Source: a virus
Taxonomy: Duplodnaviria > Heunggongvirae > Uroviricota > Caudoviricetes
Length of the DNA stretch: 25,161 bases
Strand: one strand, 5' to 3'
Virus record (IMG/VR): IMGVR_UViG_2851938318_000004
Position numbers and translations under genes: made by a program. Under the pieces are notes generated by a model. It made no database searches. It saw only the letters and a program-made list of their open reading frames with translations, and had not been told where the DNA came from. Of this stretch, positions 2,097 through 25,161 are shown one piece after another. Every line of letters starts with the position of its first letter. Within the stretch, counting starts at the first letter, position 1.

Positions 2097-2987
2097 TCAG
2101 GCTGCCAGATCATCGTTTCCGATGGAAGCATAATAAGCTTTTTCTGCTTCTGCCGGAGGAGTATGGCCCAGCCTTCCCAGCAATCGTCGATTGTTATACC
2201 AGTCCACCCACGTGAGTGTGGCCAGTTCCACTTCTGCACGGTTTTTCCAGCTCTTACGGTGTATTACCTCCGCTTTGTAAAGACCATTGATGCTCTCAGC
2301 CATCGCGTTGTCATACGAGTCGCCTGTACTCCCTGTTGATGCCAGTAATCCGGCTTCTTTTAGTCGCTCCGTATAGGCCAGTGACACATACTGAGAGCCT
2401 TTATCGCTGTGATGGATGGTGCCAGACGGACGACGGGCCCACAACGCCTGCTCCAGCGCATCCAGCACGAATGTCGTTTCCATAGACGATGAGACCCGCC
2501 ACCCCACGATGTATCCGGCAAACACATCAATGATAAACGCCACATAGACGAAGCCCTGCCATGTGCTGACGTAAGTAAAATCAGCCACCCACAGCTGGTC
2601 AGGTCGTTCTGCCACGAACTGACGGTTTACGCGGTCGCCTGCGGCAACGGCTTTCCGGCTGATGGTCGTACGGACCTTTTTACCCCGGAGAACACCGGCA
2701 AGTCCCATAACCGCCATGAGACGTGCCACTGTACATCTGGCCACCCTGATTCCTTCCCGTAACAACTGACGCCAGACTTTACGCACACCGTACACCTGAT
2801 GATTTTCATCGTATACGCGCTGTATCTCTCTCTTCAGCCAGTCGTCGTGCTGCGCACGGGCACTGCGTTTATCCGGATGATGTCGCTGTTGCTGACAATG
2901 GTAATACGTTGACGGGGCAATATGCAGTTCGCTGCATACCGGTCCGACCCCGTACTGCTCACGCAGCTTATCCAGCAGTGGCATCAT
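2097..2987 (-). CDS. IS3-family transposase OrfB (DDE integrase-like catalytic domain), IS629-like
   Basis: 296 aa ORF; 5' end overlaps orfA in the -1 frame. Confidence 0.9.
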
Positions 2988-3310
2988 TTTTTCCAGAGGC
3001 GGTCGAACTCCGCCTTCGCAAAATAAGCGGAAGCCTGGCGAAGGATATCGTTACTGCGGCGCAGTTCACGATTTTCACGTTCCAGCTCTTTCAGACGCTG
3101 ACGTTCAGCGCTGGTGAGCCCACCATCACCGCCCCCGGTATCCCGCTCATGCTGGCGAACCCAGACACGCAGAGTCTCCGGCGTACAGCCAATCTTTGGG
3201 GCAATGGAACAAATTGCCGCCCACTGTGAGTCATATTCATCCTGACTTTCCAGAACCATACGAATCGCCCGCTGACGGACTTCGGGGGAAAAACGAGTAT
3301 TTTTAGTCAT
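2984..3310 (-). CDS. IS3-family transposase OrfA (HTH DNA-binding), IS629-like
   Basis: 108 aa, [26 protein letters not shown]... with C-terminal leucine-zipper-like [21 protein letters not shown]. Confidence 0.9.
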
Positions 3311-5424: not shown

Positions 5425-5482
5425 AAAAAGGGCGGCAGAGCAGTCACGGAGTAAAACTGATACCGCCAAACGTCACCAGAAA
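5425..5482 (-). ncRNA. dicF: DicF-like small regulatory RNA (ftsZ-targeting sRNA family), about 58 nt including terminator U-tract
   Basis: Minus strand reads TTTCTGGTGACGTTTGGCGGTATCAGTTTTACTCCGTGACTGCTCTGCCGCCCTTTTT, with a GGCGG...CCGCC hairpin plus T-run. Lies about 170 nt upstream of dicB on the same strand, as in K-12. Confidence 0.7.
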
Positions 5483-11479: not shown

Positions 11480-12349
11480 ATGACCACTATTACCAAAGAA
11501 CGTATTGAATTGTTCATTAAAAATCCGCTTGAAAACGGGCTTACCCGTGGTGAACAAATGGAACTGGCACGGATTGCGCTGGCATCGCTGGAAGCAGAGC
11601 CGGTGGCAAAGATTATAGCTCATTACCCATTAGGGGTTGACGTAGGCAAACAAAAATTTGTACAGGCCATTAGAGAGCTTCCTGACTTTGGCGGATATCT
11701 ATTTGCCGCCCCTCCAGCGCCGATAGTGCCGGAAGAAATGTATTGGCAGGATGCGCCAGTTGAAGGCAGCAGCAAAGCGGCTGCATACGCTACAGGCTGG
11801 AACGATTGCCGCGAAGCCATGTTTCAGTCCGGAAACTTTCGGGAAAATAAAGATTCGTCAACCAATAATTTTCGGAAAATCCCGGAAGCGTCAACCAGCT
11901 CTCCGGTAACTCCGGCTCTTCTGCCTGGTGGTTTCACCATTGAGGAGGCGAAGGAATTACATGAAGACCTGGCACGCAGCCACATAAGCAAGGCCTTAAG
12001 TGGCGAAAAGATGAAAAAGAAAGATCGCGATGCTGATTTGCGCTGGATTCATGGCGTTATAGTTCAGGCAGCGTGGTTTGTAAAAGCATCACTGGAGCAG
12101 AATGCACTATCGGGCAACTATCCGGTAACTCCGGATAGTTGGATAAGCTGTAGTGAGCGAATGCCGGATACCAAAACAGCCGTTCTTGTTGCCAGGGATT
12201 TTGGCAGGAAAGGTGACTGGCGAATGAAATGGGCGACTTACATCCCGGGGCATCCTGACGCTAATGATGGGTGGATAATACCTGGTGCGTCGTGGATACC
12301 ATCACACTGGATGCCTCTACCAGAACCGCCGCAGGAGGTGCGCCAATGA
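11480..12349 (+). CDS. DUF551-domain phage protein, 289 aa
   Basis: C-terminal WISCSERMPD...W...IP..W.PLPEPP pattern typical of DUF551; AAGGAG SD. Confidence 0.6.
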   Translation: MTTITKERIELFIKNPLENGLTRGEQMELARIALASLEAEPVAKIIAHYPLGVDVGKQKFVQAIRELPDFGGYLFAAPPAPIVPEEMYWQDAPVEGSSKAAAYATGWNDCREAMFQSGNFRENKDSSTNNFRKIPEASTSSPVTPALLPGGFTIEEAKELHEDLARSHISKALSGEKMKKKDRDADLRWIHGVIVQAAWFVKASLEQNALSGNYPVTPDSWISCSERMPDTKTAVLVARDFGRKGDWRMKWATYIPGHPDANDGWIIPGASWIPSHWMPLPEPPQEVRQ

Positions 12350-12423
12350 ACTGGCCTGAAGCATTTGCAATTACAGGCGTTGCTATGGCTATCGCTTTTT
12401 TAGTATATGTTATTTGTCGGTGA
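12346..12423 (+). CDS. Small hydrophobic peptide, 25 aa (MNWPEAFAITGVAMAIAFLVYVICR)
   Basis: AGGAGG SD; ATGA overlap with the upstream stop. Below the ORF-track size cutoff. Confidence 0.3.
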   Translation: MNWPEAFAITGVAMAIAFLVYVICR

Positions 12424-12464
12424 GGGTAAAAACGTTCGCCGGGATTAACACCAAAGGAGGGAAT

Positions 12465-12569
12465 ATGTCGGATGATATATCACTGGCAATGGAAGGTGCG
12501 CTGGCTGTTGTTGCTGTTGTGGGCGTTTACTGCCTGGTTGTGTTTTTGATGGATCGACTAGGGAACTGA
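12465..12569 (+). CDS. Small hydrophobic peptide, 34 aa (MSDDISLAMEGALAVVAVVGVYCLVVFLMDRLGN)
   Basis: AAAGGAGGG SD 5 nt upstream; single predicted TM helix. Below the ORF-track size cutoff. Confidence 0.35.
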   Translation: MSDDISLAMEGALAVVAVVGVYCLVVFLMDRLGN

Positions 12570-12814
12570 ATTCATTACGATATGGGAATTCCCATATCGG
12601 GTAAAAACGGTTTGCGGTAAAGCGAGAGTTAAGTAGAATTGCTGCGGGTGCTTGAGGCTGTCTGCCTCGGGCATGCCACCGTAAGGCAGACAGAGAAAAG
12701 CCCCAGTTAACATTACGCGTCCTGCAAGACGCTTAACATTAATCTGAGGCCCAATCTATGCTTCACAAACGTAGGTTAGCCTCTTACGTGCCGAAAGGCA
12801 AGGAGAAGCAGGCT

Positions 12815-12970
12815 ATGAAGCAGCAAAAGGCGATGTTAATCGCCCTGATCGTCATCTGTTTAACCGTCATAGTGACGGCACTGGTAACGAGGAAAGACCT
12901 CTGCGAGGTACGAGTCCGAACCGGCCAGACGGAGGTCGCTGTCTTCACAGCTTACGAACCTGAGGAGTAA
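12815..12970 (+). CDS. hokD: Hok/Gef-family type I toxin (51 aa), HokD/RelF-like
   Basis: MKQQKAMLIALIVICLTVIVTALVTRKDLCEVRVRTGQTEVAVFTAYEPEE; in-frame upstream extension resembles a mok-like leader; inverted repeat CTGTCTGCC ... GGCAGACAG in the 5' leader. Confidence 0.85.
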   Translation: MKQQKAMLIALIVICLTVIVTALVTRKDLCEVRVRTGQTEVAVFTAYEPEE

Positions 12971-13039
12971 GAGACCCGGCGGGGGAGAAATCCCTCGCCA
13001 CCTCTGATGAATCAGGCATCCTCAACGCACCCGCACTTA

Positions 13040-13065
13040 ACCCGCTTCGGCGGGTTTTGTTTTTT
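13040..13065 (+). terminator. Intrinsic terminator after hok
   Basis: CCCGC-TTCG-GCGGG followed by TTTTGTTTTTT. Confidence 0.6.
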
Positions 13066-13137
13066 CCTGGCATTCTGGTTTACAATTCGCACGCCAGCCT
13101 GAACAACTGGCACCTGCTGCGCCAGCAGAGACAACCG

Positions 13138-24838: not shown

Positions 24839-25161
24839 TTTTTCCAGAGGCGGTCGAACTCCGCCTTCGCAAAATAAGCGGAAGCCTGGCGAAGGATATC
24901 GTTACTGCGGCGCAGTTCACGATTTTCACGTTCCAGCTCTTTCAGACGCTGACGTTCAGCGCTGGTGAGCCCACCATCACCGCCCCCGGTATCCCGCTCA
25001 TGCTGGCGAACCCAGACACGCAGAGTCTCCGGCGTACAGCCAATCTTTGGGGCAATGGAACAAATTGCCGCCCACTGTGAGTCATATTCATCCTGACTTT
25101 CCAGAACCATACGAATCGCCCGCTGACGGACTTCGGGGGAAAAACGAGTATTTTTAGTCAT
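24835..25161 (-). CDS. IS3-family transposase OrfA (IS629-like), copy 2; start codon is the last three bases of the window
   Basis: Protein identical to the copy 1 OrfA. Confidence 0.9.

What the first reader, a model, noticed from the sequence alone, without database searches (positions are those of the whole stretch)
12570..13065. hok-type type I toxin locus with structured leader but no obvious antisense partner annotated
The Hok peptide is intact, has an in-frame mok-like upstream extension and a leader containing the inverted repeat CTGTCTGCC...GGCAGACAG, and is followed by a strong terminator. An antisense Sok-like RNA promoter would be expected on the minus strand around 12700-12830 but cannot be confirmed by eye. 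If the antitoxin RNA is missing or divergent the locus may be regulated differently from plasmid hok/sok.
Basis: partly seen in the sequence, partly recalled or inferred. Interest (0 to 1): 0.45.

Follow-up and report, generated by a model that had tools for sequence, protein, structure and literature searches.

The report
Ordinary prophage hok/sok toxin-antitoxin locus

Summary
The suspicion that the antisense partner is missing or divergent does not hold.

On the minus strand, a -35 TTGCCT (12801-12796), a 17-nt spacer and a -10 TAACCT (12778-12773) precede a 71-nt Sok RNA (12766 to 12696). Sok has a 14-nt 5' tail covering the mok start codon, and a long hairpin followed by UUUU whose 5' arm covers the mok SD.

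A 30-nt stretch spanning this promoter (all of the -35 and spacer, five of six -10 bases) is identical to the sokW promoter of Sakai prophage Sp5. That -10 was mutated experimentally and the RNA was seen on northern blots (Takada 2021, PMC8621323).

The Sok position matches the annotated sokC, sokB and sokW genes. The tac/fbi end-pairing and the predicted tac/ucb switch of the R1 model are also present.

The segment carrying this subfamily's extended Sok hairpin occurs in 4216 of 5426 complete E. coli genomes. RefSeq labels the toxin HokD by protein identity. The Rfam "sok" model matches the hok sense strand, which explains the missing annotation.

Verdict: already known, low interest.

The parts
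12634..12639 (+). hok promoter -10 (TAGAAT). The -35 is weak: TTGCGG 12612-12617 with a 16-nt spacer.
   Evidence: TAnnAT sits 6-7 nt upstream of the conserved GGGTGC / GGCGC mRNA start in the window, Sp5 hokW, K-12 hokC and hokB, R1-type hok and other loci. Promoter activity is inferred.
12646..13066 (+). Full-length hok mRNA (about 421 nt), from the inferred +1 to the terminator T-run.
   Evidence: Position 1 of the Rfam RF01794 model aligns at 12646, and this aligns with the GGCGCTTGAGG start of the R1-type locus. Predicted fold -180.3 kcal/mol, z = -9.1.
12646..12657 (+). tac element (GGGTGCTTGAGG), the 5' end of the hok mRNA.
   Evidence: It pairs with the 3' fbi in the predicted fold of the full-length RNA, and with ucb in the fold of the 3'-truncated RNA. 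A perfect 9-nt inverted repeat joins 12643-12651 and 13027-13035.
12658..12693 (+). 5' leader hairpin.
   Evidence: It is the first helix of the Rfam model.
12698..12704 (+). ucb / anti-SD (AAGCCCC).
   Evidence: In the full-length fold it pairs with the mok SD region. In the truncated fold it pairs with tac, mRNA nt 1-8 with 53-59. Element names follow PMC9841398.
12696..12766 (-). Sok antisense RNA, 71 nt. The 5' tail is 12766-12753, the long hairpin 12752-12698 and the UUUU 12699-12696. It is complementary to the mok SD and start codon.
   Evidence: Coordinates were transferred from the sokW misc_RNA of AP000422, which starts at mokW ATG +8 and is 71 nt long. The alignment has no indel in this stretch. 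sokC has the same offset, and sokB likewise starts shortly inside mokB. Fold -33.6 kcal/mol, z = -5.1. The hairpin gives -28.9 kcal/mol on this strand and -17.8 on the sense strand.
12773..12801 (-). Sok promoter: -35 TTGCCT (12801-12796), 17-nt spacer, -10 TAACCT (12778-12773). The transcription start is at about G 12766.
   Evidence: Oligo YO-597 of PMC8621323 matches 12774-12803 (-) 30/30. Their promoter-less mutant primer YO-421 alters this stretch; by my reconstruction of the wild type it changes the -10. The layout CTCC-TTGNNN-N17-hexamer is found in 61 of 71 sequences examined (70 hok-family loci plus the window). The hexamer has A at position 2 in 53/61 and T at position 6 in 57/61.
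12715..12732 (.). 18-nt palindromic insertion (ACGCGTCCTGCAAGACGC) at the tip of the Sok / sokT hairpin. It is typical of the prophage hokW/hokD-type subfamily.
   Evidence: Absent from K-12 hokC, K-12 hokB and R1-type hok, present in Sp5 hokW. The 61-nt segment containing it is found in 4216 of 5426 E. coli genomes.
12746..12749 (+). mok Shine-Dalgarno (GAGG).
   Evidence: It lies 8 nt upstream of the mok ATG at 12758 and is covered by Sok.
12758..12970 (+). mok ORF (70 aa), in frame with hok and containing it.
   Evidence: This is the same arrangement as the annotated mokC/hokC and mokW/hokW pairs.
12815..12970 (+). hok ORF (51 aa, MKQQKAMLIALIVICLTVIVTALVTRKDLCEVRVRTGQTEVAVFTAYEPEE). SD AAGGAG at 12800-12805.
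   Evidence: Pfam PF01848 E = 1.5e-22. 90% identical to HokW and 80% to HokC. RefSeq WP_000813263.1 'HokD'.
13020..13035 (+). fbi element (CCTCAACGCACCCGCA), complementary to tac.
   Evidence: It is conserved in the related loci.
13039..13066 (+). Rho-independent terminator of the hok mRNA.
   Evidence: 7-bp stem with 5 GC pairs, GCTTCGGC tetraloop, then a T-run.

Best explanation
The locus is a complete, canonical hok/mok/sok type I toxin-antitoxin cassette of the prophage hokW/hokD-type subfamily. It sits in the nin region of a defective lambdoid prophage of STEC O111.

How it most likely works, following the R1 model (inferred by homology unless marked as shown):
- A weak promoter (-10 TAGAAT 12634-12639) makes a roughly 420-nt hok mRNA. 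Its 5' tac element pairs with the 3' fbi element, and its mok SD is sequestered by the upstream ucb box, so the full-length RNA is translationally inert.
- Slow 3' trimming removes fbi. tac then pairs with ucb, and the mok ribosome-binding site opens.
- On the opposite strand, the promoter TTGCCT-17-TAACCT (12801-12773) makes a 71-nt unstable Sok RNA (12766 to 12696). Its 5' tail and hairpin are complementary to the mok SD and start codon.
- Sok blocks mok translation and, through translational coupling, hok translation. It also targets the duplex for RNase III.
- When Sok synthesis stops, Hok is made and depolarises the inner membrane.

Shown here: every sequence element, its position, the predicted folds, and promoter identity with sokW.
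Inferred: transcription, 3' processing, toxicity, and the biological role (prophage retention, or help with lysis on induction).
For: Family membership
- Rfam RF01794 117.5 bits; Pfam HOK_GEF 1.5e-22.

The Sok gene
- The 30-nt sokW promoter oligo matches the window minus strand 30/30.
- Across the promoter region the window differs from Sp5 hokW-sokW only at 12768 and 12770, between the -10 and +1. Within the 71-nt Sok there are 5 differences.
- The deposited sokW, sokC and sokB annotations all put Sok on the opposite strand, starting shortly inside mok (ATG +8 for sokW and sokC) and nested inside the Rfam hit.
- The Sok candidate folds as a 5' tail plus a long hairpin plus UUUU, z = -5.1. It has six G:U pairs, which make the hairpin 11 kcal/mol more stable on the Sok strand than on the sense strand.

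The hok mRNA
- The full-length fold pairs nt 1-12 with the fbi.
- The truncated fold switches to tac/ucb pairing, as in the R1 model summarised in PMC9841398.

Experimental support from the closest relative (PMC8621323)
- HokW is toxic.
- sokW expressed from this promoter neutralises it.
- Mutating the -10 abolishes the protection.
- sokW RNA is seen on northern blots.

Distribution
- The 496-bp locus is 100% identical in many STEC genomes. Related copies occur in 4724 of 5426 E. coli genomes.
Against: - There is no expression or toxicity data for this exact copy.
- The generic sigma-70 scan did not flag either promoter. The Sok hexamers match consensus at only 7 of 12 positions, although the R1 Sok promoter (TTGCGC/TATCCT, 8 of 12) would also fail that scan.
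- The conserved promoter bases also serve the sense strand as the hok SD and the dcb, so conservation alone does not prove promoter function.
- The three chromosomal hok loci tested (hokA, hokB, hokC) were reported unable to mediate post-segregational killing (cited in bioRxiv 10.1101/2025.08.07.668861).
- MFE folds are predictions.
Confidence: 0.93

Rival explanations
1. Orphan or differently regulated Hok. The antisense Sok gene is missing or too divergent, so Hok is controlled only by mRNA folding or by some other factor.
For: No Sok is annotated in RefSeq. The generic promoter scan finds no minus-strand promoter at 12770-12800. Truly Sok-less hokD loci do exist: in K-12 relBE-hokD the leader, mok and the Sok promoter are replaced by relE.
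Against: The window keeps the whole leader, which the K-12 hokD locus lacks. Its Sok promoter is identical to the validated sokW promoter. The Sok position, fold and terminator are canonical.
Confidence: 0.02
2. Structurally intact but physiologically silent copy. All elements are present, but the locus neither kills nor stabilises anything, as was reported for the chromosomal hokA, hokB and hokC loci. It would persist only by hitch-hiking in a decaying prophage.
For: The prophage is defective: the integrase is frameshifted, there are two IS1203 insertions and the structural genes are missing. Decayed sister copies exist; for example L010 has a mutated tac and an insertion in the -35. Chromosomal hok loci were reported inactive for post-segregational killing.
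Against: No inactivating change is visible in any element of this copy. The coding region and hairpins are more than 96% conserved among 11 unique subfamily members. The closest tested homologue, hokW-sokW, is active (PMC8621323).
Confidence: 0.12
3. Same machinery, but the role is assistance with lysis on prophage induction (as shown for hokW-sokW) rather than classical post-segregational retention of the prophage or phage defence.
For: For hokW-sokW, mitomycin C with RecA eliminates sokW RNA, HokW appears about 1 h before the endolysin, and phage yield halves without the locus. In the window, hok is co-directional with the pR early operon, lying between the replication genes and Q. Read-through on induction could therefore collide with Sok transcription; this last step is inference.
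Against: This prophage lacks structural genes, so it cannot release progeny. hokW sits at a different place in Sp5, near the right end and on the opposite strand. The mechanism need not transfer.
Confidence: 0.3

Closest known systems
hokW-sokW (with mokW) of Sakai prophage Sp5 / phage VT2-Sakai and 933W (Takada et al. 2021, PMC8621323; AP000422 annotation)
   Same: - Same subfamily.
- Hok is 90% identical.
- The sampled phage records of this type, AP000422 among them, are about 92% identical to the query at the DNA level.
- The Sok -35, spacer and -10 are identical.
- Both carry the 18-nt extension of the Sok hairpin, an in-frame mok, tac/fbi, and the same Sok start at mok ATG +8.
   Different: - There are 5 substitutions within Sok, 3 of them in the 5' recognition tail.
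- Five residues of Hok differ.
- The window has a canonical terminator after the fbi, whereas homology with Sp5 ends there.
- The position in the phage differs: the nin region here, near the right prophage end in Sp5.
- The window carries an extra small-ORF and palindrome insert upstream.
hok/sok (parB) of plasmid R1
   Same: Same architecture and the same named elements: Hok/Gef toxin, mok, antisense Sok with a -35 / 17 nt / -10 layout overlapping the hok SD, tac/fbi, ucb, and a terminator.
   Different: - Hok is only 41% identical.
- The R1 -10 is TATCCT, against TAACCT here.
- The R1 Sok hairpin is short (GTTAAT-GAAAA-ATTAAC) and lacks the 18-nt insertion.
- The R1 locus is plasmid-borne and has a proven post-segregational killing role.
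K-12 hokD (relF) of the relBE-hokD operon in the Qin prophage
   Same: Nearly identical from AGGAGAAGCAGGCTATG (window about 12801) through the terminator. There is one substitution within the hok CDS, which changes one residue (V34 in the window, I in K-12). This is why RefSeq names the window protein HokD.
   Different: K-12 hokD lacks the leader, mok, sokT and the Sok promoter. The breakpoint lies inside the Sok -35, and relE sequence replaces everything upstream. The window is the complete form, of which K-12 hokD appears to be a 5'-truncated derivative.
K-12 hokC (gef)/mokC/sokC and hokB/mokB/sokB
   Same: Same cassette layout. The Rfam hit strengths are similar, at 118 and 110 bits. The Sok genes are annotated at the equivalent position.
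   Different: Neither has the 18-nt hairpin insertion. The hokC-type -10 is degenerate (CACTCT). Hok identity is 80% and 35%.

Membership tests
[quoted passage not shown] | Small hydrophobic Hok/Gef-family toxin ORF | tested here: met
   51-aa ORF 12815-12970. Pfam PF01848 E = 1.5e-22, 79.4 bits against a cut-off of 22.
[quoted passage not shown] | Overlapping mok reading frame with its own SD upstream of hok | tested here: met
   70-aa ORF 12758-12970 in frame with hok, with GAGG 8 nt upstream. Same layout as the annotated mokC and mokW. Translational coupling itself was not testable.
[quoted passage not shown] | cis-encoded antisense Sok gene: a promoter on the opposite strand, and a short RNA complementary to the mok translation-initiation region that ends in a hairpin plus U-run | tested here: met
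   TTGCCT-17-TAACCT at 12801-12773 (-). A 30/30 match to the sokW promoter oligo. The position equals the annotated sokW and sokC offset, with sokB at the equivalent place. Fold z = -5.1. The layout is present in 61 of 71 sequences examined.
[quoted passage not shown] | Long-range 5'-3' (tac/fbi) pairing in the full-length mRNA, and a tac/ucb switch after 3' truncation | tested here: met
   Predicted fold of 12646-13066 pairs nt 1-12 with 13020-13032. A perfect 9-nt inverted repeat is present. The fold of 12646-13019 pairs nt 1-8 with AAGCCCC, nt 53-59. These are predictions only.
[quoted passage not shown] | Conserved structured leader (covariance model) | tested here: met
   RF01794 117.5 bits against a gathering score of 59, full length 1-157.
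[quoted passage not shown] | Hok toxicity, neutralisation by Sok, instability of Sok, 3' processing of the hok mRNA | not testable with these tools
   Shown experimentally only for relatives: hokW-sokW (PMC8621323) and R1 (PMC9841398).
K-12-type hokD (relF) locus | hok fused downstream of relBE, without mok, leader or Sok | tested here: not met
   The window has the full leader, mok and Sok. K-12 homology begins only at about window 12801. The RefSeq name 'HokD' reflects protein identity only.

The most novel reading that the evidence does not exclude
Two features stand out in this prophage subfamily. The Sok 5' tail and mok start (12751-12770) is among the most variable stretches of a cassette whose coding region, hairpin stems and promoters are more than 96% conserved. 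The Sok hairpin carries an 18-nt, G:U-rich extension that is markedly more stable on the Sok strand than on the sense strand. Together these could form an insulation code that lets up to 7-10 co-resident hok/sok paralogs per STEC genome be controlled independently, one per prophage. Because the cassette is co-directional with the pR operon, each could be tied to induction of its own prophage.
Probability: 0.25. Interest if true: 0.3.

Novelty: already known. Interest (0 to 1): 0.08.

Why it matters
It matters little as a discovery. It is one more copy of the most common hok/sok type in E. coli, and a close paralog has already been tested experimentally.

The practical value is for annotation:
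- RefSeq annotates only the toxin, and names it HokD after a truncated K-12 locus that really does lack Sok.
- Rfam's 'sok' model matches the hok sense strand.
- Complete hok/sok cassettes therefore look like orphan toxins in automated annotation.

Tried and rejected
- **Generic promoter scan.** It flagged neither the hok nor the Sok promoter, because it requires 9 of 12 consensus matches. The one plus-strand hit inside the leader (TTAACA-18-TATGCT, 12733-12762) has its -10 over the variable mok start. It is not conserved in Sp5 (CCATGCT), so I treated it as chance.
- **Looking for hokW in Sp5.** I searched the nin region of Sp5 (L004) with two primers and found nothing. The locus is at the other end of the prophage.
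- **First protein alignment.** It failed on an off-by-one coordinate and was redone.
- **Low-threshold Rfam scan.** It gave only sub-threshold hits: isrK 27 bits, ceN48, rsmX, a CRISPR repeat, and a minus-strand 'sok' hit of 18 bits. None was accepted.
- **Pas sRNA preprint.** It only cites the hokW paper.
- **ucb and dcb.** I first assigned them from memory and corrected the assignment against PMC9841398.
- **Covariation.** I did not attempt covariation statistics with a new covariance model. The family is already curated, and the same helix exists on both strands.

Full report
**Observation**

- An ATG ORF at 12758-12970 (+) encodes 70 aa. Its last 51 aa, starting at ATG 12815, are a Hok peptide, so mok is an in-frame N-terminal extension. 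This is the same layout as the annotated mokC/hokC and mokW/hokW pairs.
- Pfam HOK_GEF matches at E = 1.5e-22.
- The inverted repeat CTGTCTGCC / GGCAGACAG lies at 12659-12667 and 12686-12694, within a longer 21-nt arm pair.
- A 7-bp GC-rich hairpin with a T-run lies at 13039-13066.
- The whole leader, 12646-12820, matches Rfam RF01794 over the full model at 117.5 bits, E = 1.7e-26.

**Source and context**

The window is 100% identical to a chromosomal region of STEC O111 strains such as 11128 and 110512. RefSeq annotation of that region shows a defective lambdoid prophage:
- the integrase is frameshifted;
- there are two IS1203 copies;
- it carries dicB, a cI-like LexA-family repressor, cro and nin-region genes;
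- hok lies between a DUF551 gene and DUF968/rusA/Q, on the same strand as the pR operon;
- downstream come three tRNAs and lysis genes, then IS1203 and tccP2. No structural genes are present.

Only the Hok CDS is annotated, as 'HokD'. No mok and no Sok are annotated.

**The Sok gene is present**

I compared the window with K-12 hokC and hokB, an R1-type plasmid hok/sok locus, and hokW of Sakai prophage Sp5.
- The block TAGCCTCTTAC...GCAAGGAGAA is invariant in all of them.
- Read on the minus strand, the window gives CTCC-TTGCCT-(17 nt)-TAACCT-ACGTTT-G. That is a -35 at 12801-12796, a -10 at 12778-12773, and a start at about G 12766.
- The R1-type locus has TTGCGC-17-TATCCT at the same place.
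- The annotated sokC begins at mokC ATG +8, and sokB likewise begins shortly inside mokB, both on the strand opposite hok. The sokW misc_RNA deposited in AP000422 is 71 nt and also begins at mokW ATG +8.
- The window-Sp5 alignment has no indel in this stretch, so the transfer gives Sok = 12766 to 12696 (-).

**Experimental anchor**

Takada et al. 2021 (PMC8621323) studied hokW-sokW directly.
- HokW is toxic.
- sokW expressed from its own promoter protects against it.
- A promoter-less mutant loses the protection and is rescued in trans.
- sokW RNA is detected on northern blots.

Three of their oligonucleotides bear on the window.
- YO-597 (CCTTGCCTTTCGGCACGTAAGAGGCTAACC) spans the -35, the spacer and five of the six -10 bases. 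It matches window 12774-12803 (-) 30/30, against 0.00 expected by chance.
- The mutagenic primer YO-421 alters this same stretch. If the Sp5 wild type is as in the window, which the alignment supports, it changes the -10 from TAACCT to GAGCCG.
- The sokW-complementing fragment, primers YO-406 and YO-541, corresponds to window 12665-12818.

Between the window and Sp5, the only promoter-region differences are 12768 and 12770, which lie between the -10 and +1. Within the 71-nt Sok there are five differences: 12723 in the loop, 12751 in the stem, and 12757, 12763 and 12764 in the 5' tail.

**Structure of Sok**

The candidate folds as a 14-nt single-stranded 5' tail, a long interrupted hairpin (12752-12698) and UUUU. 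The energy is -33.6 kcal/mol with z = -5.1. Six G:U pairs make the hairpin 11 kcal/mol more stable on the Sok strand (-28.9) than on the sense strand (-17.8). That fits selection acting on the antisense RNA as well as on the mRNA.

Compared with hokC, hokB and R1, the hairpin tip carries an 18-nt palindromic insertion (12715-12732) flanked by TTAACATTA repeats. Sp5 hokW has it too. The 61-nt segment containing it occurs in 4216 of 5426 complete E. coli genomes, so it is the common form and not a peculiarity of this copy.

**The hok mRNA**

A -10 of the form TAnnAT (TAGAAT, 12634-12639) lies 6-7 nt upstream of the conserved GGGTGC start in all family members compared.

*Full-length RNA (12646-13066).* The predicted fold pairs the 5' tac element GGGUGCUUGAGG with the fbi element CCUCAACGCACCC at 13020-13032. 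It also pairs GCC of the upstream AAGCCCC (ucb) with the mok SD region (the inverted repeat is).

*Truncated RNA.* With the last 47 nt removed, the predicted fold pairs tac nt 1-8 with ucb nt 53-59 and releases the SD from ucb.

This reproduces the closed-to-open switch of the R1 model as summarised in PMC9841398. These are predictions, not measurements.

**Family-wide check**

A scan of one genome per species returned 73 hok loci; the 70 long enough to use were analysed with the window, 71 sequences in all.
- 61 of the 71 have CTCC-TTGNNN-N17-hexamer upstream of hok on the minus strand.
- In those hexamers, A is at position 2 in 53 of 61 and T at position 6 in 57 of 61. TAACCT, TATCCT and TAATCT are among the commonest forms.
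- The sequences without the motif include K-12-type relBE-hokD copies and a visibly decayed copy.

One caveat applies. The same bases serve the sense strand as the hok SD and the dcb, so conservation alone does not prove promoter function.

**Why it looked orphaned**

1. RefSeq names the protein HokD because it differs from K-12 HokD at one residue. The K-12 locus is homologous only from AGGAGAAGCAGGCTATG onward. Upstream, relE replaces the leader, mok and the Sok promoter, and the breakpoint falls inside the Sok -35. The window is the complete form.
2. Rfam's 'sok' model is 157 nt long, starts at the hok mRNA 5' end and ends at the hok AUG. It hits the hok sense strand in the window and in the K-12, R1-type and VT2-Sakai loci. 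The real annotated Sok genes lie nested on the other strand.

**Verdict**

- The locus is an ordinary, apparently intact hok/mok/sok cassette, closest to the tested hokW-sokW.
- It is already known and of low interest.
- What remains inferred is expression, toxicity and biological role for this copy in a defective prophage.

Noticed in passing
window 12646-12820 (+); L002 602-754, L003 1067-1218, L007 1545-1719: Rfam RF01794 'sok antitoxin' always hits the hok sense strand. It spans the hok mRNA leader from +1 to the hok AUG (157 nt). The annotated sokC, sokB and sokW genes (57-71 nt) lie nested on the opposite strand. Annotation taken from this model gives the wrong strand and length.
   Followed up: yes
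window about 12801; L082 (K-12 relBE-hokD): K-12 hokD is homologous to the window only from AGGAGAAGCAGGCTATG to the terminator. The breakpoint lies inside the Sok -35 hexamer, and relE sequence replaces the leader. K-12 hokD therefore looks like a 5'-truncated copy of this locus type.
   Followed up: yes
window 12751-12770: The Sok 5' tail, mok start and discriminator region is among the most variable stretches across 11 unique hokW/hokD-type loci. The non-consensus fraction reaches 0.24, against 0.04 or less in the hairpin stems, promoters and most of the coding region; only the 5' hairpin loop and a loop after the hok stop codon vary as much. This may reflect insulation between co-resident paralogs, which number up to 10 places per genome.
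   Followed up: partly
window 12953-12955 (Hok Tyr47 codon TAC, within GCTTACGAA): The sequence resembles a TadA-type A-to-I editing context, like a tRNA-Arg anticodon loop. Editing would recode Tyr47 to Cys. The Hok diversity preprint (10.1101/2025.08.07.668861) says hokC, hokD and hokE mRNAs are edited at the equivalent position.
   Followed up: no
window 12578-12599: A perfect 22-nt palindrome, CGATATGGGAATTCCCATATCG, centred on an EcoRI site. It lies just after a small ORF and about 35 nt upstream of the hok promoter. No T-run follows on either strand. Among the 81 loci fetched by then, it was found only in the two that are identical to the window. Its function is unknown.
   Followed up: partly
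window 12346-12423 and 12465-12569 (+): Two small hydrophobic ORFs lie directly upstream of hok: 25 aa MNWPEAFAITGVAMAIAFLVYVICR, and 34 aa MSDDISLAMEGALAVVAVVGVYCLVVFLMDRLGN. Sp5 has only a homologue of the first (MTWPEAF...). The second ORF and the palindrome look like an insert of about 175 bp, flanked by GGTAAAAACG repeats at 12426 and 12600.
   Followed up: partly
window 12979-13060 (+): A sub-threshold match of the hok 3' UTR (fbi plus terminator) to Rfam isrK, at 27 bits against a gathering score of 50. This is probably chance or a shared terminator.
   Followed up: no
window 5430-5481 (-), 17546-17792 (+), 17872-18062 (+), 2913-3029 and 24764-24880 (-): Other RNA elements in the window:
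- DicF sRNA next to dicB;
- a tRNA Ile-Arg-Arg cluster;
- STnc100, a 138-bit hit that overlaps a minus-strand pseudogene call in RefSeq;
- two IS1203 frameshift pseudoknots (ALIL).
DicF and STnc100 are not annotated in the RefSeq record.
   Followed up: no
L010 (E. coli ECMA0423, CP178302.1 1947610-1949162): A sister copy in another E. coli has a mutated tac (GACTGCATGTGG) and a 1-nt insertion in the Sok -35 region, although its Hok ORF is intact. It is an example of a decayed regulatory region, in contrast to the window copy.
   Followed up: partly
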